From positions 18,538,001 through 18,602,000 of the forward strand of contig NC_073395.1 in NCBI RefSeq assembly GCF_028641065.1: a stretch of DNA of 64,000 nt. The letters run 5' to 3'. Source of the DNA: Leucoraja erinacea. Lineage: Eukaryota. The notes beneath the pieces are model-generated. The model was not told the DNA's origin, did no database searches, and saw nothing but the letters and a program-made list of their open reading frames with translations. A program made the translations under genes and the position numbers. Shown in pieces: positions 105-54,439 of this stretch; position 1 is the first letter of the stretch, and each line of letters starts with the position of its first letter.

Positions 105-246
105 TATAGTTAACCCCGTAGTACAGTTATCACCGTGCTACAGTCAAATCTGGGCTGCAGTCATCCCTATGGTACAGCAACCCTGGGCTACAGTCATCCC
201 TATGGTACAGCAACCCTGGGCTACAGTTATCCCCGTGGTACAACCA
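105..246. repeat. 33-bp minisatellite (3-4 units)
   Basis: CAGTCATCCCTATGGTACAGCAACCCTGGGCTA repeated. Confidence 0.85.
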
Positions 247-1879
247 TGTTCCCAGACATTGCCACACTTCAGCTCGCGGCTGGGTCCGCGGGACATTAGA
301 TGCCGGGTTGCACACTGTCTCCTGAGTCTCAGGTGTAAACGAGACACTCCCTCAGGATTTTCTATCAACTAAGGACATGACAATGCTGAACCAGGAATGA
401 TGAGCTGCGGTTGTAACACACCCTGGTTCACTGTCCCTTTTGGCTTCTTTTCACCTCCCCCCTTACTCCCCCCCCCCCCCTCATCTGCATCCACCTATCA
501 CTCGCCAAGCTTTGTCCCACCCCCTGCCTCCCTTTTCTAGCTTTCTCCCTGCTACTACGAATCAGTCTGAAGACTCGAAACATCGTCTGTCTGTTCCATC
601 CACAGATGCTGCCTGACCTGCTGTGTTTTGCTGAACAATACAGCCCCAGCCCCATTGAGGTACTGTGAGATTTTACAGTGTAGCAATAAAATGAAGGCAC
701 CAAAGACCTTGAACAAAACGTGGTTGAGCTTCTCCTCGAGTCCCTGGTTTGTTGGGTCTCTCTACGGTTTGCTTAAGTCACCGATTCAATGATTCTGTGA
801 TTCTTTAATATCACATGTTACCCATGTACAGTGAAATACTTTGTTGGCATTCAATCCGCTAAAACCAAACTATAGAAAAGCACACACATAGATAAATACA
901 ATATGCAACAACAATTGTGATGTAATACAGTAGTAGACTTCACCATCAACGTTCTTAAGAGACTAATCTTGGCACCGCTTCAAAACCAGTGACCATTGCT
1001 CAACAGGGCAGAGATTTGAGGAAGGAAATTGTATTGTCGAATTTTATCCACAATGACCAGTTTGTGCTGATGGAAGACAACCGTGTGCATCTGAGAGGTT
1101 GCGGTGTGTGTCGGATAGCGAATGGAATCTCACACTGCGGATGTCCGCAGAACCTAACGTCCACCTTGTCTCACCAGACACCGCTCTGTTGGTGGGACGG
1201 CCAGGCCGCAAACCCCTACGCTGCTGTCACAGAGTCATTGAGCAACACTGCATGGAGACCGAGATCTACGGTTTCCTCCCACACTCCAAAGACGTACAGG
1301 TTTGTAGGTTAATACAATACAATACAATGGGTCCTTCTGCTGCTGGACATTGGGGGCCGAGTGTGGTGGATATACCCCTTAAACAAGGGAAGGGATATCA
1401 CTCCAGGGGGCCACATAAGTGGCAAAGATGCTTGCTATAAGGATAGCTTGTAAACACTAGCAAAGATATAACTAATAAATATATATATATATAGCCGCTG
1501 AGAATTTCAGAAGTGTTTTAGCACTGTTTATCTTTTGTATATCGAATAGAGGGTAAATGCACAGTCTCTTGCCCAGAGTATGGGAATCGTGAACCAGTGG
1601 ACAAAGGTTTAAGGCGAGGGGGGAAAGATTTAATAGGAACCTGAGGGGTAACATTTCTACACAAAGGGTGGTGGATGTAAGAAACAAGCTAGTTGAGGCC
1701 GGTACCATCACACAGTCAAGAAACATTTAGACAAGTACATGGATAGGGCAGGTTGAGAGGGATATGGGTCAAACGCGGGCAGGTGTAGACAGGACATGTT
1801 GGTCGGTGTGGGCAAGTTGGGCAGAAGGGCCTGTTTCTATGCTTTCTATGATGCTACATATATTTTTTTTTCTGAAGAG

Positions 1880-1885
1880 TTTATT
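1880..1885 (-). other. Putative polyadenylation signal (AATAAA) of GCIP
   Basis: tttatt on plus strand, about 77 bp downstream of the TGA at 1962-1964. Confidence 0.55.
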
Positions 1886-2007
1886 TTTGGATGGAGGTCC
1901 TCGTGCTTCTGCGGTCTCACTGACGGTGGGGAGGACCAGCGATGGAGTGGGTGGAGGGTCCTCAGCAGGAACACAGAGTGTCCGTCACTGCCGCTGGCTC
2001 CGTGTCC

Positions 2008-3262
2008 AGGCTGGGGTTCAGTTGTTGCTGGGTGGGGCTGGGGTTCAGTTGTTGCCGGGTTGGGCTGGGGTTCACTTGTTGCCGGGTTGGTCCAGGTTCT
2101 TGTTGTTGCCGGGTGGGGCTGGGGTTCGGCTGTTGCCGGGTGGGGCTGGGGTTCAGTTGTTGCCGGGTGGGGCTGGGGTTCACTTGTTGCCGGGTTGGGC
2201 CAGGGTCTTGTTGTTGCCGGGTGGGGCTGGGGTTCGGCTGTTGCCGGGTGGGGCTGGGGTTCAGTTGTTGCCGGGTGGGGCTGGGGTTCGGCTGTTGCCG
2301 GGTGGGGCTGGGGTTCGCTTGTTGCCGGGTGGGGCTGGGGTTCACTTGTTGCCGGGTGGGGCTGGGGTTCACTTGTTGCCGGGTGGGGCTGGGGTTGGGC
2401 TGTTGCCGGGTGGGGCTGGGGTTGGGGCTGTTGCCGGGTGGGGCTGGGGTTCAGTTGTTGCCGGGTTGGGCTGGGATCTTGTTGCCGGGTGGGGCTGGGG
2501 TTCGGCTGTTGCCGGGTGGGGCTGGGTTCGGCTGTTGCCGGGTGGGGCTGGGGTTCGCTTGTTGCCGGGTGGGGCTGGGGTGGGCTTGTTGCCGGGTGGG
2601 GCTGGGGTTGGGCTGTTGCCGGGTGGGGCTGGGGTTGGCTGTTGCCGGGTGGGGCTGGGGTTGGGCTGTTGCCGGGTGGGGCTGGGGTTGGGTTGCCGGG
2701 TGGGGCTGGGGTTGGGCTGTTGCCGGGTGGGGGTTGGGGTTGGGTGGGGCTGTTGCCGGGTGGGGGTGGGGGGCTGTTGGGGTGGGGCTGGGTTCACTTG
2801 TTGCCGGGTGGGGCTGGGTTGGGCTGTTGGGGTGGGGTGGGGTTGGGCTGTGGGGTTGCCGGTGGGGCTGGGGTTCGGCTGTTGCCGGGTGGGGCTGGGG
2901 TTCGCTTGTTGCCGGGTGGGGCTGGGATCTTGTTGCCGGGGGTGGGGCTGGGATCTTGTTGCCGGGTGGGGCTGGGGTTCGGCTGTTGCCGGGTGGGGCT
3001 GGGATCTTGTTGCGGGGTGGGGCTGGGGTTCGGCTGTTGCGGGTGGGGCTGCGGTTCAGTTGTTGCCGGGTGGGGCTGGGGTTCACTTGTTGCCGGGTGG
3101 GGCTGGGATTCAGCTGTTGCCGGGTGGGGCTGGGGTTCTTGTTTGCCGGGTGGGGCTGGGATCTTGTTGCCGGGTGGGGCTGGGGGTTCGGCTGTTGCCG
3201 GGTGGGGCTGCGGTTCAGTTGTTGCCGGGTGGGGCTGGGGTTCGCTTGTTGCCGTGGCCGGG
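2008..3262. repeat. 27-bp G-rich minisatellite (about 45 units, CCGGGTGGGGCTGGGGTTCAGTTGTTG) inside the GCIP last exon
   Basis: Directly visible tandem periodicity; minus-strand translation NPSPTRQQ[L/V/A/P]. Confidence 0.95.
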
Positions 3263-3364
3263 CTGACGTTGGCACCTCCACGGTGCTTGGGTCACACTCG
3301 AGCATCGCACGCACCCAGGCGTCTTCCAGCGCTCCCTCCACAAACTCCCGCTGGCTGATCACAG
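2451..3364 (-). CDS. GCIP: GCIP exon 5 as assembled (EF4 end plus repetitive tail; true stop probably at 1962)
   Basis: cctag|AVISQREFVEGALEDAWVRAMLECDPSTVEV, then open reading into NPSPTRQQx repeats; first in-frame stop at 2451 comes only after register slips in G-runs. Confidence 0.7.
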
Positions 3365-5165: not shown

Positions 5166-5271
5166 CGTCTCTATCCTTGTCTAGACGTGTGAACATGCGC
5201 TCGGTGCATTCTTCAGCCGTCTGCAGGTCAACATTCGTCAGCGACGCTGCCAGGCTCATTTTGTAGATGGC
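5166..5271 (-). CDS. GCIP: GCIP exon 4 (EF4 start)
   Basis: tacag|AIYKMSLAASLTNVDLQTAEECTERMFTRLDKDRD-G|gtgag; 106 bp, phases 0 to 1. Confidence 0.92.
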
Positions 5272-6019: not shown

Positions 6020-6169
6020 CTGCATAATCTCCAGCATCTCTGCCCGGCTGATGGCTCCGTCCTTATCCTTATCGTAGAGTTTAAAGGACCACCTCAACTT
6101 CTCCTCCGCCGTGCCCTGTATCAGCAAGCTGACGGCTGTTACATACTCGCTGTAATCCACCAGATCATC
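6020..6169 (-). CDS. GCIP: GCIP exon 3 (EF2 end, EF3)
   Basis: DDLVDYSEYVTAVSLLIQGTAEEKLRWSFKLYDKDKDGAISRAEMLEIMQ|gtcagc; 150 bp; canonical EF3 loop DKDKDGAISRAE. Confidence 0.93.
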
Positions 6170-7114: not shown

Positions 7115-7252
7115 CCAACCAAGATGCCCCAACTGACCAATTCTGCCCCATCTGACCAATTCTGCTCCATCTGACCAAGATGCCCCATCTGACCAAGATG
7201 CCCCATCTGACCAAGATGCCCCAACTTACCAATTCATCCATACCAACCAAGA
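7115..7252. repeat. 19-bp tandem expansion within a LINE/SINE tail
   Basis: TGACCAAGATGCCCCATC-like units, about 7 copies. Confidence 0.8.
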
Positions 7253-8282: not shown

Positions 8283-8415
8283 CCTGTTATCGTCCAAAGT
8301 CCGGAAGATCTGCTCGGCGTACTCCGACGATCCTGGGCCCACGGTCCCATCGCAGAAGTGTCTCCGGAACTCGTGCAGGGTGATCAGCCCACTGGGACAT
8401 TCCTCAATGAATTTC
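8283..8415 (-). CDS. GCIP: GCIP exon 2 (EF1 with CPSG motif, start of EF2)
   Basis: ttgcag|G KFIEECPSGLITLHEFRRHFCDGTVGPGSSEYAEQIFRTLDDNR|gtgagg; 133 bp, phases 2 to 0. Confidence 0.93.
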
Positions 8416-11349: not shown

Positions 11350-11420
11350 CTGCACCATATGTGAAGTTCCAGGGCATACGTGTCCTTTCTCCTCGGAGGC
11401 AGCACCGCAGTCTGGCCCAT
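11350..11420 (-). CDS. GCIP: GCIP (guanylyl cyclase inhibitory protein, NCS/GCAP-related EF-hand protein) coding exon 1
   Basis: MGQTAVLPPRRKDTYALELHIWC-R, then donor AG|gtaatc; 71 bp, phase 2; resembles the amphibian GCIP N-terminus (MGQ...TYxLELHxW.RKF). Confidence 0.88.
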
Positions 11421-11474: not shown

Positions 11475-11575
11475 GGCAAGATTAACGAGTGCAGTTGAGA
11501 GTGTGTTGAGAATTAACTTTAAAGCCATATAATCCTCCCTGTTCTGCACAAAGGGGATTACTGTGTGATTACTAA
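11475..11575 (-). promoter_or_regulatory. GCIP proximal promoter with clustered CRX/OTX-type sites
   Basis: AGATTA 11479-84, TAATCC 11530-35, GGATTA 11555-60, TGATTA 11566-71, all within 60-150 bp of the ATG; TTTAAA near 11518-23. Confidence 0.6.
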
Positions 11576-31843: not shown

Positions 31844-33189
31844 TGGGTTTGTAGGTTAATTGGCTTCTGTAAATTGTCCCTAGTGTGTAGGATAGAACTA
31901 GCCTGTGGGTGATTGTGGTTGGTGTGGCCTCAGAGGGCCAAAAGGCCTGTCTCTATGCTGTATGTCTAAAAACTAAACTTAAAAAAAACACGATCTTTCT
32001 CCATCACCACCCTCGGCAGCACATTCCAAGCACCCACCTCTCTCTGTATAAGAAAAGCTCCCCTGCACATCTCCTTCCACCACTCGGACCTTAAAGCTAT
32101 GCCCTCTATTGTTTGGCATTTTCACCCTGGCAAAATGGTTCTGTCTCGTCTACCTACGCCTCTAAAGTGCTGTCAGGTCTCCCCTCAGCCTCCGATGTCA
32201 GAGAAAATAAAACAATGTATGTCGTCTCTCCTCATAGGTAAATTCCTCTAGTCATCTAGTCTCCTCTGCATCCTCTCCAAAGCCTTCACATCCTTCCTGC
32301 AATGGGGCAACCAGAACTGAGCACAACATTCCACATGTGATGTAAACAATGTTTCGTAAACTTGCCGTTTGACTTCCTGACTCTTATACCCAATGCCCCG
32401 ACCGATGAAGGCAGGCATACTGTACGCAGCCTTTACCACTCTATCTGATTGACCTGGATGTCAAGATCCCTTTGTATGACTGGATTAAACGAAATCTACC
32501 ATTTCTACACCCATACCTGCAGCCAATCTATGTCCTTTGATGGCTTTTCTCATCGTCTGCAATTACACCAGTTTTGGTGTTATCTTCAAACTTACGAACC
32601 ATTCCACCAATCTTCGTGTCTAACTCTTTTATACATATCACAAACAATGCAGGTCCCCGCCAGAATAACATACCTCCAACAGAACCCAGTCTTCTCTGAG
32701 TAGAGAGAAGACATTAGCTCTGAATCCATTTGACCAAGTCACTGTAGACCCATCAATCTTTCTGATCAGATAACCATGAGGGACAATCAAATGTCTTGCT
32801 AAAGTCCATGTAGAATAACATCCACTTAGTCATACAGCACAAAAACAGGCCCTTCGGCCCATCTCACCCATGCCGACCATGACGCCCCAACTAACCTAGC
32901 CCTATTTGCCAGGCAACTGAACCGTCTTCTTACCAACTAGAGAGCAGTCCTGTCTTACCATCTACCTCATTAGAGACCCTTGCAACATCTTTAATCGGAC
33001 TTTACTGGACTTTATCTTCCACTATAAAGTGATCCTGTATTTGTACATTGTGGACGGCTTGATTGTAATCTTGTTTAGTCTTTCCACTGACTGGATAGCA
33101 CGCAACAAAAAGCTTTTCACTGTACATCAGTACACGCATGGCTGTCCGAGGGGGGGGGGCAATGAGTGCAAGGCGCAATATTTTTTTAT

Positions 33190-33495
33190 TCAACACCAGG
33201 ACAGAGGGTGCCTTGCCTTTGGGCTCCTTGGCCTTCTTGCAGCCGGACAGCCACTGGATGACCCTGGCGTTGTGCTCGATGACCGAGTGGGCAGAGGGCG
33301 GGGGATTGTTCTTCCCCCAGAGCGGCTCGTTGCCGCTACTGTGCCGGGACGACTCGCTCTCCGAGTCTGGGCAGTTCACGCTACAAAACTTGAGGGCAAG
33401 GCTTTCGAAGGCGGCGCCGGCGGCAAACTTCTCCATGACCAAGTTCACGATCACCTCGGGCTCGTGTCCGCAATGCTCGAAGTAACTGTCGAAGC
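33190..33495 (-). pseudogene. FAM110-family C-terminal domain fragment
   Basis: FDSYFEHCGHEPEVIVNLVMEKFA...SLALKFCSV...HSVIEHNARVIQWLSGCKKAKE resembles the FAM110_C motifs (FFxxCGLDP...L..E.F; S.IERNAR.IKWL); no N-terminal part or start codon. Confidence 0.72.
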
Positions 33496-34397
33496 CCGTA
33501 TGACTTTGGGGGGGGGGGAGGGGGTGACGTCACCCGCAGCGCATGGAAGTGTAGTACGTTCTATTGCATTTAGGTGAGATATCGATTTCCCCAATAAAAT
33601 ATAGATTTTCAGCCATCAAAATACGTAAATGTTCGGTGAAATAATTATTATTCACAATCACATTGTGTTTGAGAAATCAAAATGTGATTTGCGATCTTGT
33701 TTATGAGTCATCATGGAACTAGAATTTGTTATAATAGTATGCCAGTAAAATAGGTTAGATTGAAATTGATCATAGTAATGTAAATGCTCTTCAAATTGAC
33801 TTCAATTTTCATCATGGAAATTGGCCAAACTAAATGTTGTATTCACATCACTATTCCATGTTGAAATTGACACGTGAAGTTGTTAGGTTAGGAGGACCAT
33901 TAAAGGTGCACTGCACACACTAACACAGTCTAACAGTAACAGGCAATCAAATCAACACACAAAACATTTTCGAAAAAAAGGTTTTCTTTACTGCGAAAAC
34001 TTACAGTATTTTATTTGCAGTTTTTGCATGCTCCTGTATAACATTTTGCATAACATTTTACAACAGTACAACATGATTATTAAAACAAGGACAACTTCAA
34101 TTCATGATTTTTAAAAAACGTATACATGTAAACATTGACCCCAATCACCTCATTCCACCCACTCATTACTCTTGACTCAACCAAAAATTATTTATGAAAT
34201 ATTGCTCATTAATGTGGTGCAAAAATGCTCCAAAATAAGGCTCAGAATGCACCAGAGAGAATATAAAAGCCCAGACCTAAAACCCTAGACCCTGGCCGCG
34301 AGGGACATTGTGCTTCATCCTTGTGATGTTATTTCACATAAAATGTTTGTAATCCTGTCATGCCACCCCCCTTTTTGAAAAGCTTCATACGGGCCTG
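33491..34397. mobile_element. Non-autonomous DNA transposon-like element (hAT-like ends)
   Basis: Terminal inverted repeats gaaGCCCGTATGA (33491-503) and TCATACGGGCctg (34385-97), each with a subterminal G/C run; AT-rich non-coding interior. Confidence 0.6.
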
Positions 34398-40626: not shown

Positions 40627-43600
40627 TTATATCCTTTTTATAAGCCCAGAGGCCCTCAAGAAATCAAACAACAACTTTATTCCTTTTCCTTTCCCTCCAC
40701 ACTCTAGAATGTTCTTTACTGATATTTCTGTCAATCCAATTTTCCTCATTTCAATGATCATAAGTCCTCTTTCTGTCTCATATCTCCTACATGCAATTAG
40801 GGCATGCTGAACAGTTTCTGGCTGATGGTATTCCCCACACAGCCCAGTAGGGTGTTTTCCCAATATTTTTAATGTGCTGTTCAGGTGAGTGTGTCCTATC
40901 CTCAATCTTGTTAATACTACCTGTTCCCTCCTGTTCCCCCCTCTTCTTGCTGTAATGCCCACTCTGTTTTGTATCGAATAGAGGTGTCTCCCCTTTGTCT
41001 CCTGTTCCCAGTATTGTTGCCATTCCTGATTTATTTTCTTCCACACAATGTGTTTTCCTTCAGATTTGGATAGTTGTAAGTTTACCTCTATGTTTCTTTT
41101 TTTTTAAAGCCTCCTTTGCTAATTTATCCACCTTTTCATTCCCTAGAACACCAATGTGAGCTGGGTCCCACAACAAAGTCACGTCACTGCCCCTCCTTGT
41201 CACTTGGCTTAATAGTAGCAGGATTTCATAAACTAAGTCAGGCCGCCTATGGGATGCACCAGACCCAATATTCTGGATTGCAGATAATGAGTGGCTACAT
41301 ATTAATACTTTACATGGTTGCATCAGTTCCATCCACCGAACTGCCATCAAAATAGCGTACAGTTCCACTGTATATACTGTCAAATAGTTATTTGTTCTTT
41401 TGTAAAGCTCAACATTCATCCCCTGGACTACCACCGCCGCCCCTGTTGTTTCAGCTACTGGGTCCTTTGATCCATCTGTGAAAATTAAGAGGTGTTCCCT
41501 GTATCTATTATCTATATGGTTATGATATTCTGTCTTTAGGTCTGAATTTTTGTTCCTCCTTTTTGCCTCCCATATCTCCAGATCAACTTTTGGGATGTTC
41601 AGTAACCATATTGGCACAGATGGCCACAATACTGCAGGGCAGAACTCTTTGTCCTCTACTCCCATGTCCCTTGCCACAACTCCTCCAACCCAGCCGAAGC
41701 TTCCAGACTGAGCCACCCCTCTCTCCCAGCATTCCTGTACTACCTGTTTTGTTGGGTGGTTCTCTCCATGACCCTTGAGGCTTAGCCAGTAATTAGCCAT
41801 TAGTTGTCTGCGGCGCAGTCTCAACGGCATCTCCCCAGTTTCCACCTGTAGTGCACATACAGGTGACGTCCGCACACCTCCTATACAGATTCTTAGAGCT
41901 TCTGCTTGGACTTTGTCCAACTCGGACAACACTGACTTAGATGCTGACCCATACGCTATACTGCCATACTCTAGTCTGGATCTGATCAATGATACATAAA
42001 TACGTTTAAGAGATGATACATCTGCTCCCCACTCTAAACCTGCCAAGCATCTCATTACATTGATGACTTTTTTGCATTTTTCAATTATTTTTGTAATGTG
42101 GACCCTCCATGTTAATCTGGAGTCAAAATGAACCCCCAGGAAATGGAAATCTTTTACTCTTTCCAAATTGTTGCCGTATAGTTTTAACTGGACATCCTCT
42201 TTAATTTTTTTCCTTGTGAAAACCATTGTCTTTGTCTTCTTTATAGAGAATTTAAAACCCCATTTCCCTCCCCACTCTTCCACCTGGGCTATCCCTTGCT
42301 GTACTTTTTCCACGATAAAATCTATATTCCTCCCCCTTCGCCATAGGCTGCCATCATCTGCAAAGAGCGATCACCGCATCACTGGTTGAATGTTTGCAAA
42401 TATATCATTGATCATGATTGAGAATAGGATCGGGCTTATCGCACTTCCCTGGGGAGTTCCATTCTCGACTACACATTTACTAGAGATGTCTGACCCTATT
42501 TTAACTTGGATACTTCTACCGTTGAGAAAATCCATTATCCAGTTAAAAATATTTCCTCCTACTCCCATTAAATGCAGCTTTATTAGAAGACCTTCTCTCC
42601 ACAACATATCGTAAGCCTTCTCTACATCAAAAAATATGGTAACTACAGATTCTTCTTTGACTTGTGCTTTCCTTATATCATCTTCCAAGCACAGAACTGG
42701 ATCATTAGTACCTCTCCCTTTTCTAAAGCCACTCTGATAATTAGCCACTATACCTTTTTCTTCCATTAGATGCATTAATCTTTCATTTACCATTCTTTCC
42801 ATCAGTTTACACATGTGTGCTGTTAAAGCTATAGGTCTATAATTTACTGGATTACTTGCATCTTTCCCTGGTTTTCTAATAGGCACAATGATTGCTTCCT
42901 TCCACCTCTCCGTTCTTCCCGTACCTTGTTATATAGTGCAAGTATCTTTTGGAGTCCCTCCTCACTTAGATACATTATGTAACAAATATCATCCTTCCCT
43001 GGGGCTGAGTTCTTACACTTGGCCAGAGCTCTCTTTAGCTCCCCCAAATTAAATGGAATATTGTACTTGTCCTCTGTGATACCTTTCCTGTGTAAGGCCT
43101 CAACATTTTCCTCTCTTGTTCTTTCCCTACCTCTTCTTCCTTCCTCTGATAAGTTGTGGGAGCTGTGAACCCTACTAAAAGTGTTAACCATTAGTTCTGC
43201 TTTGTCTTTATTTGAGACTACAGTTTGATCTCCATATGTTAGGATAGGATAACTCCACTCCCTTTTATCACCTTCCATTTTTTTAATCATCCCCCATATC
43301 TCCCCTACCTGTGTTGTGTTTCCAATGGAATCACAATACTTCCTCCAATATGCTCTTTTTGTTTGTCTTATAGTCCTCCTTACAATTGCCTGAGCCTGTT
43401 TGTAATTAATCATGTGTTGGTAGTTATGAGTTCTTTTTAATAATCTGAATGCTCTGTTTCTATTCACCACCACCTCTTTACACTTATTGTCCCACCACGG
43501 CACAGCTTTCCTTTTTGATCTTCCTTTACTTTTAGGTATGGAAACTAATGCTGCTCTTTTGATACCTTCTGACAATTTATTCTCAAAGCTTTCTATATCA

Positions 43601-44364
43601 GTCTCGTCTTGTATCGGTTTTACATATCTATCACTTTCCTCCTTAAATTGCTCCCAATTAGCCTTTCCAAAAACCCATCGTCCACTTCTGTTTTCTTTAC
43701 TCATAATTAAAGTAACATTTATTTTGCATAGCACAGGATGATGATCACTTCCTATGGTACCCTTTTCATATACTCCCCAGTCACATTTAGCAGCAATCCG
43801 ATTAGAAACAATTGTAAGGTCCAACACAGACTTCTTCCCTGTCCTAACATCTACCCTGGTCTTCTTTCCATCATTTAGACATACTAGGTTACCACCATTC
43901 AATAATTCCTCAATTACCTGTCCATTATTATCTGACTTTCCACTGCCCCATAATGTATTATGTGCGTTAAAGTCCCCACACCAAATAACATTAGATTTGC
44001 TCTGGCCTTCTACTTCCTGTAACTTACTGACCTCTAATCGCTTACATGGATTATAGTAATTTATTACCACTATTTTCCTCCTCTCAGACCACACTTCTAT
44101 TACCACATATTCCTGTTCCTGCCCAATTCCTAATACCCTGTATGGTATCCCTTTTTTAATGAAAGTGGCGCAACCCCCTCCTCCCCCATTTCCCCTATCA
44201 CATCTCACTGCAACATAATCATAAAGAACAAAATCTAAACTTGGTTTTAACCAGGTTTCCTGGATACATACGACATCTGGTTTTTCCTTCCTACTGTCTA
44301 TGAATTGCTTAAAGTCTTGCCCATTGGCTAACAAGCTTCGTGCATTCCATTGTAGGATTAACAT
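40627..44364 (-). pseudogene. LINE ORF2 (APE endonuclease, reverse transcriptase, RNase H), several frameshifts
   Basis: QWNARSL, IQETWL, GDFNAH, SDHHP (APE); YRPIAL, QSGFR, DVEKAYD, GTPQGS, LFADD (RT); FTDGS...ELYAI...PAHIGVLGNEKVD (RNase H); split over four ORFs. Confidence 0.92.
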
Positions 44365-44372
44365 TAATATTA

Positions 44373-45555
44373 TTAACCCACACATGTTGACTCTTGGCTC
44401 CCCTGGATACTGAGACCATCATGTATTTCCTCCCACTTCAATCCTGCCATGCCCAAGTGGTGGACTGCAGCCTTTACAATGATTTCTGTTTTGGATTTTA
44501 TTTCTGCTGTCGCATTTATTACTCCTGCTATAAATATAACCAGGTTTTTCTTTTCTTTCCATATACTATTTTCTTTTTCTTTTATTGTCTCCATTATGCC
44601 CACATCTTGCTCCCTCCTGATCCTTCTTTCATTCATCTGTTTTGTAGGGCCAGCCCTCTTTGCTGCCTCTGCATAGGAGACCTTTTCCTTCACTCTTATG
44701 TTTTGTACTACAGCTTCGTGTTTCATCACCTCACAGCCCCAGTAAGCCACACTATGCTCTCCTCCACAATTACAGCACTTTGGTCTGACCCCCTCTCCAA
44801 CACTGACCATATTCATGGTCCCCACTACACCTTGCACATTTCCTCGCCCCCTTGCACATTTTAGCTATATGCCCAAATTTCTGACATTTGAAGCACCTCA
44901 TTGGTTTGGGTACATACTCTCTTACGCTATATCGCATGAATCCAAAATGGACCACTTTTGGAAGGGATTCTGTCTTGAATTCGACCAGGACTGACTCGGT
45001 TTCCTCTTTCTTTGCTCCTTTGGTCATTCTTTTGGCACTCATAATTAATTCACATCTCTTCCTGAGTTCCTGAACCAGTTCACTCATATTAACTTTGAGA
45101 GAGATTCCATAGATAACCCCTTTACACCCTGCCCTCCTCCGTTCTCCTACTCTCACTACTTTGATTATTTTGGTTTTGTCAATCTTGTTCATTTTCATTG
45201 CCTTTTCAACTTGAGCCTCACTGTTGCACCCTATTAGCATGTTTCCATCCTCCAGCACTCTTGCATACTTTACTTCCCCAACCTGGGCCCTGATTATTTT
45301 TGTCAGCTTCAATGGCGCTATCTTCTTTACTCCTCCTTTTCCTTCAAACCTCGCCACTACATTTAACGAAATTTCCTTTTCTGGTTCTTTGTCTTCACTC
45401 TCCGATCCACCAGTATTGTTTTTCCTTCTTTTACGGCTGCTCTTCCTGGGACTACCCCGTGCTCCCACGGTTTCCCACTCCTCCTTCTCAACACTTTGTT
45501 CGTTATCCTCTCTTCCACTGGCCTCCATACCACTAGACCCACTCTCACAGATCAT
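44373..45555 (-). pseudogene. LINE ORF1 (gag-like nucleic-acid-binding protein), one frameshift
   Basis: CFKCQKFGHIAKMC, CARCSGDHEYGQC, CCNCGGEHSVAYWGC; frameshift near 44790-44810. Confidence 0.88.
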
Positions 45556-45843
45556 TTTGTAACAGCAGGGAATAGTAACAGAGCACCATTTACCGGACCT
45601 ATACGGGCCATCGGCCGATACCCCGATACAATATGCCCTCCGCGTCTGCGACCGCTTTCACTGCAGTCTATCTCCCTTCTTCTCCGACTCGCAACTCTCT
45701 CCCCCTGACGCATCTCTGCTGCAGTGAAGCTGCTTTGGAGGTTGCTGTGCTGAGTGTTGCGTGGCTGTGCGGGTCACGGGGCTGGGAGGGGTGGGGTGAT
45801 ACCTGGGCCCTCTGCTGATCGCCTCACTGCCCGTTTCCCACAG

Positions 45844-48504: not shown

Positions 48505-48548
<44 letters not shown>

Positions 48549-49031
48549 GGGGGAGAGGGGACCTGAGTGAGAGGGGCTGCAAAGAGAGGGCTGAGGGTTG
48601 ATGCAGTTTCTTGGTTGTAACCTCAACGTGGCTGGTCTACGACAAGTTGTCATGGATATTGAATTAATATTTACACCAGGGACTGAAGCTGGCGACCTTG
48701 TAACCCTTGCCCCCAATGATCAGCCTCTGCGGGTGTGCCCGTGTCCCACTCCCTGCCCGCAGGCATCCTGCTCATTACAGCTGGCTGGGGCGTGAATCAC
48801 CACAGATCAGCTCGCACTGAAAGGCTTTAACTCGTCACGTCCCGTCGAGTCAGCGATCCACGGGGCGCGTAGGCGTGTTGACATCAGGCTTGGGCTGGGT
48901 GGGGAGTTCCTGCCCAAAGATCTTATAGCTCTGCTATAAGATCTTTGTTCCTGCCTACGGCATTCCCTGGACAGCGGGGATACGCTGCCGATCTTCCTGG
49001 GACACTGATTGGAACGAGATCCCGGGTGGGT

Positions 49032-49067
<36 letters not shown>

Positions 49068-50094
49068 AGGGGGGAGGAGAGGGTGGGGAGGGGAGGGGGG
49101 GAGGGGCAGGGGGGGGGGGGGGGGGGAGGGAATCTAGGACTATGTGGGAAAAGCCAGAACGGGGGTGTTGATTTTGGATGATCAGCCATGATCATATTGA
49201 ATGGCCTACTCCTGCACCTATTTTCTATGTTCAAGGCAGCATTTTGTGTTGGTTTATTGTTGCCACGTGTACCGAGGTACAGTGCAACACTTTGTGTACT
49301 ATCCATTCAAATATTGGATTTATGTTAGGAAGCAACGTCAGTCGCTGCTTTACACTTATAATTCTGGAGTAACTCAGCCGGTCAGGCAGCATCTCTGGGG
49401 AGATTCCCCAGTAGGTGACATTTCGGGTTGAGACCTTTCTTCAGACTGAGAGTCAGGGAGGGGAAAAACTAGAGGTATGAGAAGGTACAGAACAAAGCAG
49501 AGTATTTATGTGTAGTATTGTGTGATCTGAACAAAACAAAGCCTTGTATGCAAAACAAGGTTTTTCGCAATACCTTGGTACATGTGATAATAATGAACCA
49601 ACATAAACCTAAACAAAACCATACCATACACAAGTACAAGAGGTACTTCCCTCCCCCACGCAGTGTGGGTGCAGTGACCGTCAGTGGTCTCCCCTCCCCC
49701 TCCCCTCCTGACGGCCGCTGAACCAGTGCAGGGGAGCCCAGTGTTACTCCATGGAGCACCGGTCCCGCTGGTGTTCATCGGCCAGCCACCCCTCCATGAC
49801 TTTAGATACAGCGAGGAAACGGACCACTCGGCCCATCGAATACGTGCTGACCAGCGATCCCCATACACTATACTATCCTGCACAATAGGGGCAATTTACA
49901 TTTTTTACCAAAGCCAATTAACCTACAGGTGAGAGAGGGTCCTGCCTCTTTTTCCAAAGATCTGTTGTTTATGGGTTGGTTTTGGGCACTATGGGTTCTG
50001 GGTCTCTGGCGCTGTAAGGCAGCATAAGAGATTAGTATACAAACTTAAAGCACAAGGCATTGGGGGTTCAGAATTGATGTGGATAGAGAACTGG

Positions 50095-53016: not shown

Positions 53017-53056
<40 letters not shown>

Positions 53057-53685
53057 CAACGTGAGTGGGAGGGGGGTGCTGTCGGAAGGGGGGGGGGGTT
53101 GCTGTCGGAAGGGGGGGGGGGGTTTGTGGGTGGGGGGTCTGTGGGGGGGGGTCTGGGGGGGGGGTGGGGGGGGAGTCTGTTGTGGGGGGGGGGTCTGTGG
53201 GAGGGGGGGGGTGGGAGGGGTGGTTTGGGGGGGGGGGTCTGTGGGAGGGGGGGGTGTGTGGGAGGGGGGGGGTCTGTGGAGGGGGGGTCTGTGGGAGGGG
53301 GGTCTGTGGGAGGGGGAGTCTGGGGGGGGGGGTTGGGAGGGGGGGGTCTGTGGGGGGGGGGGGTCTGTGGGAGGGGGGTCTGTGGAGGGGGGGGGGTCTG
53401 TGGTGGGGGGGGGGGGGTGGGGGGGGGGGGGTCTGTCTGTGGGGGGGGGGTCTGTGGGAGGGGGTCTGTCGGGGGGGGGGGGGTTGGGGGTGGGAGGAGG
53501 GGGGGGGGGTCTGTGGGGGAGGGGGGTGGGGGGGTCTGTGGGAGGGGGGTCTGTGTGGGGGGGGGGGGGGGAGGGGGGTCTGTGGAGGGGGGGGTCTGTG
53601 GGAGGGGGGTCTGTGGGGAGGGGGGGGTCTGTGGGAGGGGGGGGTCTGTGGGGTGGGAGGGTGGGGTCAGTGATGGGTGGGGGGT
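53017..53685. repeat. G-rich minisatellite (GGGGGTCTGTGGGAGG-like) filling plakophilin intron 9
   Basis: Recurrent TCTGT cores between variable G-runs. Confidence 0.9.
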
Positions 53686-54156: not shown

Positions 54157-54215
<59 letters not shown>

Positions 54216-54439
54216 GGGGGGGGGGGGGGACAGGGATTGATGGGGTCCGTGGAACAATAAGCTGTTCCAGTCTGTGATGGGACAGGAGGAGGTGGGCAGT
54301 GTGGGAGGCAGAGGGAGTGGTCACTTGGACAGGTGTGTGGTTGGGGCAGCGGTGGGCTGGAGACATTGACCCCCCACCCTGACCCCTCCCTCTGACACTC
54401 CCTCTCTGTCACCCCTGCTCCATCCCCCACCCCTCACAG

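What the first reader, a model, noticed from the sequence alone, without database searches (positions are those of the whole stretch)
1880..3364. GCIP with a ~400-aa tandem NPSPTRQQx C-terminal tail ending in -CSC
Seen: GCIP exon 5 has no stop after the conserved LECDxSTVE end and reads straight into 27-bp (9-codon) repeats in the NPSPTRQQ[L/V/A/P] frame. The distal ~15 units keep perfect register and exit into unique SLDTEPAAVTDTLCSC-TGA (1962), with AATAAA about 77 bp later. Register slips in the middle fall mostly in G homopolymers. Known: NCS/GCAP-family sensors, including amphibian GCIP, are compact ~200-aa proteins, and S-P-x-R is the full CDK/CDK5 consensus. Inference: the real protein may be ~620 aa with a disordered, multiply phosphorylatable tail (reminiscent of neurofilament KSP arrays) and a terminal Cys-x-Cys that could be lipidated. 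This would be an unusual architecture for a photoreceptor Ca2+ sensor. If the species is a skate (rod-only retina that adapts to bright light), it is more interesting still.
Basis: partly seen in the sequence, partly recalled or inferred. Interest (0 to 1): 0.8.

Follow-up and report, generated by a model that had tools for sequence, protein, structure and literature searches.

The report
Skate calcium sensor grows repeat tail
In skates the gene for the small calcium-sensor protein GCIP lacks the stop codon that ends it in sharks and other rays, so its last exon reads on into a tandem DNA repeat that would add a predicted unstructured tail (87 residues in thorny skate, likely about 430 in little skate), which is likely tolerated rather than selected because its length, sequence and end motif differ between skates and no transcript has been seen.

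Summary
The feature is real, but the functional story is weak. The window holds little skate GCIP. All 17 shark and non-skate ray GCIPs compared stop at residue 188; skates read on. Here exon 5 runs into about 47 copies of a 27-bp G-rich minisatellite and ends at TGA 1962, in net frame (620 aa). Thorny skate has 8 in-frame units and the same ending (275 aa).

Eleven of 46 units slip frame as assembled. Two short-read contigs stop matching exactly at the first slip, so it is likely an assembly error; the other ten are untested.

The EF-hand core shows no significant rate increase, though skates replaced the EF2 glycine (G70D).

Best reading: stop-codon loss followed by growth of a coding minisatellite, likely tolerated. 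New variant of a known kind; interest 0.4.

The parts
11479..11560 (-). Three CRX/OTX-type homeodomain sites 64-140 bp upstream of the ATG (motif recalled; function not shown)
   Evidence: 3 sites in 500 bp; 4 of 122 background windows have as many
11350..11420 (-). GCIP coding exon 1 (Met-Gly start)
8283..8415 (-). GCIP exon 2 (EF1 with CPSG, start of EF2)
6020..6169 (-). GCIP exon 3; first codon is Asp70, where 139 of 140 orthologues have Gly (EF2 loop position 6); EF3
5166..5271 (-). GCIP exon 4 (start of EF4)
3261..3364 (-). Exon 5, conserved part, residues 154-188
3258..3260 (-). Codon 189 (CGG, Arg), the position at which 17 of 17 shark and non-skate ray GCIPs stop
2009..3254 (-). 27-bp minisatellite, 46 full units and one partial, reading (N/D)PSPTRQQx; five units are an in-frame 24-bp variant; 70% GC, + strand G-rich
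3182..3182 (.). First frame slip: fifth G of a G run; short-read contigs of the same species stop matching here
   Evidence: X2 record 2; X1 record 8
2409..3200 (-). Noisy part of the array: 11 out-of-frame units, no two identical
2009..2408 (-). Clean distal part in perfect register, including a duplicated four-unit block
1962..2008 (-). Unique tail end and TGA stop; ends C-S-C here, G-S-C in thorny skate and organisms C and D
1863..1885 (-). AATAAA (1885-1880) followed by a genomic run of nine A (1871-1863)
428..454 (-). Last exon of the RefSeq little skate model; lies in a dispersed repeat, has a purine-rich acceptor, and shares a 7-nt word with the donor side; likely a prediction artefact

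Best explanation
Skate GCIP lacks the stop codon that ends shark and other ray GCIPs at residue 188, so exon 5 reads on into what was likely 3' untranslated sequence, where a G-rich minisatellite has likely expanded in frame to encode a predicted unstructured tail that is likely tolerated rather than selected. Shown: stop absent in three skate genomes; 8 in-frame units and the same stop in thorny skate; about 47 units in net frame here; a different, frame-shifting 37-aa tail in Rhinoraja. Inferred: (1) one stop-loss mutation in the skate ancestor; (2) a 27-bp unit has no stop in this frame, so each expansion lengthens the protein, whereas Rhinoraja's 28-bp unit caps it; (3) G-quadruplex-prone sequence drives both the expansion and the assembly noise; (4) the true little skate allele is open to 1962 (about 620 aa, probably variable between alleles); (5) the EF-hand core still works as a Ca2+ sensor, perhaps with altered EF2, and the tail hangs off it as a coil. 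Loss of cones, where frog GCIP is expressed, may have eased constraint on the C-terminus; this is a correlation in one lineage.
For: 17 of 17 non-skate elasmobranch GCIPs are 188 aa. The longest of 141 non-skate orthologues is 240 aa (search limited to 103-329 aa). Thorny skate model: 275 aa, in frame, same end. Organisms B, C and D carry both ends of the exon, and none of the 13 distinct codon changes worked out is a stop. The Rhinoraja tail fits only period 28 among 15-40, against 0 of 500 shuffles. Recurrent unit types are 24 or 27 bp; out-of-frame units are singletons. X1 and X2 contigs match from 3183 with 0 differences and leave 2 and 9 letters unaligned beyond. G4Hunter-type score 1.31 for the clean part; contig depth beside the array is 8.2 against 22.7 just upstream in X2. 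Residues 182-275 are coil, pLDDT 39-56. Tail-end changes among relatives are mostly non-synonymous.
Against: No RNA evidence either way. Ten of 11 slips are untested, and no contig spans the array. The letters beyond the contig break were not shown, so the missing G is inferred. No ray or shark DNA behind the stop was seen, so the 3' UTR origin is inferred from protein ends. The frame, stop and last Cys are kept in little skate, thorny skate, B, C and D, with a synonymous change in the Cys codon in C and D, which hints at some constraint. The core shows no significant rate increase (60 tests, lowest p 0.19), so general relaxation is not shown. All comparison proteins are predicted models.
Confidence: 0.6

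Rival explanations
1. The tail is a selected regulatory module in hardnose skates: a multisite proline-directed kinase substrate with a lipidated terminal Cys that retunes or relocates GCIP in the rod-only retina.
For: S-P-T-R fits the CDK/CDK5 consensus (established knowledge): 7 sites in thorny skate, 11 in the clean distal part here. Frame, stop and final Cys are kept in five rajid-like genomes; 0 of 141 other GCIPs end in Cys. Skates share G70D, P134L and K28E. Three CRX/OTX-type sites lie upstream.
Against: C-x-C is not conserved, and C-x-C prenylation needs a Rab fold and its escort protein (recalled). Rhinoraja has 0 S-P-x-R sites. Copy number differs about six-fold. The motif is fixed by the DNA unit, so its repetition needs no selection. 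GCIP transcripts were not found in ray or shark eyes.
Confidence: 0.12
2. Some mid-array slips are real, so little skate makes a shorter protein (about 240 aa, like Rhinoraja's 225) and the rest of the array is untranslated.
For: If only the slip at 3182 is an error, the frame stops at 237 aa. The second slip (unit at 3148) is not a simple run-length change. Rhinoraja shows that a frame-shifted short tail is tolerated.
Against: Out-of-frame units are all singletons clustered in one zone, while the distal 14 full units are clean. The net frame to the shared stop is kept (one in three by chance). The assembly has many long G-run tracts.
Confidence: 0.16
3. The array is spliced out as in the RefSeq little skate model (191 aa), leaving a normal-sized GCIP.
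For: XP_055506895.1 is 191 aa and leaves exon 5 after residue 183. A GT is present at 3275.
Against: The added exon lies in a dispersed repeat (40 of 40 scored candidates match, 2127 candidates). Its acceptor is purine-rich, and both junctions share GGAGGTG, a known sign of template-switch or alignment artefacts (recalled). The thorny skate and Rhinoraja models read through.
Confidence: 0.05
4. The gene is barely expressed and on its way to becoming a pseudogene after cone loss, so the tail has no consequence.
For: Little skate has pseudogenised pde6c, arr3 and gnat2. Frog GCIP is a cone protein. Skates broke the near-invariant Gly70 and Pro134.
Against: All five exons and splice sites are intact. 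Only 2 core differences from thorny skate and 7 from Rhinoraja. Relative-rate tests are not significant, and stingrays break as many invariant sites (5-7 against 4-5).
Confidence: 0.07

Closest known systems
GCIP (guanylyl cyclase inhibitory protein; frog O73763, shark and ray orthologues), NCS/GCAP family
   Same: Colinear 184-residue core, 85-87% identical to ray and 80-86% to shark orthologues (thorny skate as reference); four EF-hands with CPSG in EF1; Ca2+ ligands kept in EF2-4.
   Different: No stop at 189; repeat tail of 37 to about 430 aa; Asp for Gly at EF2 position 6.
C-terminal extension by stop-codon loss (Andreatta et al. 2015, PMC4494051; abstract seen)
   Same: Non-coding sequence is co-opted into a protein's C-terminus by loss of a stop.
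   Different: Those cases are short and still polymorphic; this one is shared by two skate families and has been amplified by a minisatellite.
Coding VNTRs (mucin-type arrays, DRD4, aggrecan; recalled)
   Same: Unit length a multiple of three, GC-rich, copy number differs between genomes, Pro/Ser/Thr-rich coil.
   Different: Sits on a small cytosolic Ca2+ sensor and is young; within-species length variation was not measured.
Neurofilament KSP arrays and RNA polymerase II CTD (recalled)
   Same: Repeated Ser-Pro motif in a disordered tail.
   Different: Those repeats are conserved over long times and shown to be phosphorylated; this one is not conserved across skate families, has no Pfam hit and is untested.

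Membership tests
GCIP | Orthology: best matches are GCIPs | tested here: met
   Residues 1-184 identical to the little skate protein; groups with ray GCIPs, 98/92 support; only one such locus in the genome
GCIP | EF2-EF4 loops with D, D/N, D/N/S, E at positions 1, 3, 5, 12 (criteria in PMC6170504) | tested here: met
   D65-N67-D69-E76; D101-D103-D105-E112; D149-D151-D153-E160. Position 6 of EF2 is Asp, against Gly in 139 of 140 others
GCIP | Compact length, about 190-220 aa | tested here: not met
   Genomic frame gives 457 aa as assembled or 620 aa in net frame; thorny skate 275 aa
GCIP | N-terminal myristoylation | tested here: inconclusive
   Gly2 is present; no predictor run
GCIP | Photoreceptor expression and Ca2+-dependent competition at guanylyl cyclase | not testable with these tools
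   RNA runs of unknown tissue gave no test; literature finds none in shark or ray eyes
Stop-loss C-terminal extension | Outgroups stop at a position that is a sense codon in the ingroup | tested here: met
   17 of 17 non-skate elasmobranch proteins end at 188; codon 189 is CGG here and Arg in three skates
Stop-loss C-terminal extension | Extension aligns to outgroup 3' UTR DNA | not testable with these tools
   No ray or shark DNA for this locus was available
Coding VNTR | Unit a multiple of 3 and frame open through the array | tested here: inconclusive
   Met in thorny skate and in the distal part here; 11 of 46 units slip in this assembly
Coding VNTR | Copy number varies | tested here: met
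   Between species only: 8 against about 47 units; within species not measured
Rab-type C-x-C prenylation substrate | Conserved terminal C-x-C | tested here: not met
   G-S-C in thorny skate, C and D; both states in B
KSP/CTD-like phospho-array | Repeat conserved across the lineage and phosphorylated | tested here: not met
   0 S-P-x-R sites in Rhinoraja; phosphorylation itself not testable here

The most novel reading that the evidence does not exclude
Along with losing cones, skates turned a cone calcium sensor into a new protein: a tail born from untranslated DNA grows by minisatellite expansion (8 to about 47 kinase-consensus repeats) and, with the EF2 change, sets how GCIP acts on guanylyl cyclase in the bright-light-adapting skate rod, with repeat number as a tuning knob.
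Probability: 0.12. Interest if true: 0.78.

Novelty: new variant of a known kind. Interest (0 to 1): 0.4.

Why it matters
GCIP length is fixed at 188 aa in every shark and other ray model compared, and is broken only in skates, the lineage that includes the cone-less little skate. That gives a placed example of a protein tail likely born from untranslated DNA and then amplified by a minisatellite, with three different outcomes in three skates. It also suggests the public little skate gene model is wrong at its 3' end. If the gene is expressed in skate rods, it offers a concrete test for the old question of how these rods work in bright light. If it is not, it is a modest case of tolerated drift.

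Tried and rejected
Expression: no RNA holder was listed for the stretch. Three raw RNA runs of the same species (X22, X23, X24; about 1, 3 and 5 in 100 read; tissue unknown) gave 5, 7 and 0 laid reads, all partial and under 95% alike, none on the unique part of exon 5. This is no test, and counts neither for nor against.

Other long GCIPs: a search of 110-2000 aa proteins with the exon 5 plus repeat query found 2 of 36 candidates, both Rhinoraja clusters, one holding the little and thorny skate proteins; weak evidence of absence.

Faster core evolution: 60 relative-rate tests, none significant; low power. dN/dS could not be computed without orthologue DNA. Absence of stops in the repeat frame was not used as evidence of selection: too few independent changes. 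Homopolymer placement of slips was dropped as evidence (see observation check).

One search was swamped by flanking repeats (96 substitution rows and 69 indel rows hidden), so 'no stop among relatives' covers shown rows only. One search timed out and was redone. One search was a bacterial promoter scan and is irrelevant. A strict four-tract G4 pattern found only 1 match in the clean part because the between-unit loop is 13 nt.

Literature: searches listed no paper on a skate GCIP tail; most subscription journals are not covered. PMC10061024 had 0 hits for my five terms. The supplement of PMC12324554 could not be read and may hold expression values. Earlier-finding look-ups returned nothing.

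Full report
Gene and species. Five coding exons on the minus strand (11420-11350, 8415-8283, 6169-6020, 5271-5166, 3364 onward) have AG/GT junctions and encode GCIP. Residues 1-184 are identical to the little skate RefSeq protein XP_055506895.1. Its contig length equals that of the window's contig, so that model is probably built on this assembly and is not independent evidence. GCIP has one locus in the genome.

Observation. Exon 5 has no stop after the conserved end and enters a 27-bp array of 46.8 copies at 2009-3254, found only here (25 of 25 exact matches). The distal 14 full units and a partial unit are in register and lead to TGA at 1964-1962, with AATAAA 77 bp later. The spliced length to that stop is 621 codons, in net frame. 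As assembled, the frame slips at the third unit and stops at codon 458. Eleven of 46 full units have out-of-frame lengths, all between 3200 and 2409, no two identical; recurrent unit types are 27 or 24 bp.

Are the slips real? Two short-read contigs of the same species match from 3183 with no difference and carry 9 and 2 further letters that do not align (X2 record 2, X1 record 8). The break falls at the fifth G of the run 3182-3186, which is the first slip. The unaligned letters were not printed, so a four-G run is inferred. These runs may come from the assembled sample: a different technology, not necessarily a different animal. Contig depth beside the array is 8.2 against 22.7 just upstream, and most of the array has no X1 or X2 contig. 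The + strand scores 1.31 on a G4Hunter-type scale, and the window has many long G tracts. Poor polishing, or two alleles of different length, would explain a noisy middle with a clean distal end (inference). The other ten slips are untested. If only the first is an error, the protein ends at 237 aa.

Relatives. All 13 shark and 4 non-skate ray proteins compared are 188 aa. I left out one Mobula model with an aberrant N-terminus (it has the same C-end) and a second Rhinoraja isoform. The next codon here is CGG, and all three skates read Arg there, so the stop was likely lost in the skate ancestor. The thorny skate model is 275 aa, with 8 in-frame units and the same ending but P-G-S-C for L-C-S-C. 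Rhinoraja's model has a 37-aa tail, a 22-residue segment of which fits only a 28-bp period among 15-40 (0 of 500 shuffles fit any): it walks through the frames, stops early and has no S-P-x-R. Three unnamed relatives carry both ends of the exon. Their listed changes keep the frame open and give G-S-C in C and D and both states in B; the last Cys codon has a synonymous change in C and D. No contig spans the array, and 96 substitution rows were hidden. All proteins compared are predicted models.

The RefSeq little skate model splices after residue 183 to a 27-bp exon at 454-428. That exon lies in a dispersed repeat, has a purine-rich acceptor and shares a 7-nt word with the donor side. I read it as a prediction artefact, not yet excluded by RNA.

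The core. EF2-4 keep the ligands listed in PMC6170504. All three skates have Asp for Gly at EF2 position 6 (Gly in 139 of 140 others) and Leu for Pro134 (Pro in 127 of 141); two have Cys for Tyr23. Against decay: no relative-rate test was significant (lowest p 0.19 of 60), and stingrays break as many invariant sites, though mostly with milder swaps. AlphaFold2 on the thorny skate protein (42 sequences, mean pLDDT 61, pTM 0.48) gives a helical EF-hand core and coil from residue 182 on. The tail has no Pfam hit. Three CRX/OTX-type sites lie just upstream of the ATG; 4 of 122 background windows have as many.

Expression. I have no evidence for this gene (no test). PMC6170504 (passages seen) lists no GCIP transcripts in bluespot ray or reef shark eyes and calls the gene lost in cartilaginous fish, which the shark models contradict. 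bioRxiv 10.1101/2025.10.31.685797 (passages seen) finds the gene in their genomes but no eye expression, never mentions skates, and places frog GCIP in cones. PMC12324554 (abstract and passages seen, supplement unreadable) reports pseudogenised pde6c, arr3 and gnat2 in little skate and does not mention GCIP. PMC4494051 (abstract seen) describes C-terminal extension by stop loss as a known process.

Verdict. The proposed function rests on motifs that relatives do not keep. The best reading is stop loss followed by in-frame growth of an unstable minisatellite, giving a disordered tail that is likely tolerated (0.6). Rivals are true truncation near 240 aa (0.16), a selected phospho-tail (0.12), a silent decaying gene (0.07) and splicing out (0.05). 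I found no description in print. New variant of a known kind; interest 0.4.

Noticed in passing
window 40627-45657 (-): Near-complete non-LTR retrotransposon: zinc-knuckle ORF, endonuclease, reverse transcriptase and RNase H pieces, separated by stops.
   Followed up: partly
window 33002-33529 (-): Open frame with a FAM110 C-terminal domain hit, E 2e-15.
   Followed up: partly
window 48505-48553, 49024-49130, 53018-53662, 54158-54229: Very long G runs and a G-rich 15-17-bp array; likely noisy consensus in G-rich tracts.
   Followed up: no
window 6167-6169 (-): G70D at EF2 loop position 6 in all three skates, against Gly in 139 of 140 other GCIPs; may alter Ca2+ binding whatever the tail does.
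   Followed up: partly
window 121-242 and 7118-7232: Two other small minisatellites near or inside the gene, 33/17-bp and 18-bp units.
   Followed up: no
window 1500-1860: A very high-copy repeat begins just beyond the polyadenylation signal (depth table).
   Followed up: no
P0133, P0135: Heterodontus has two near-identical GCIP models; shark GCIPs contradict the 2018 statement that cartilaginous fish lost the gene.
   Followed up: no
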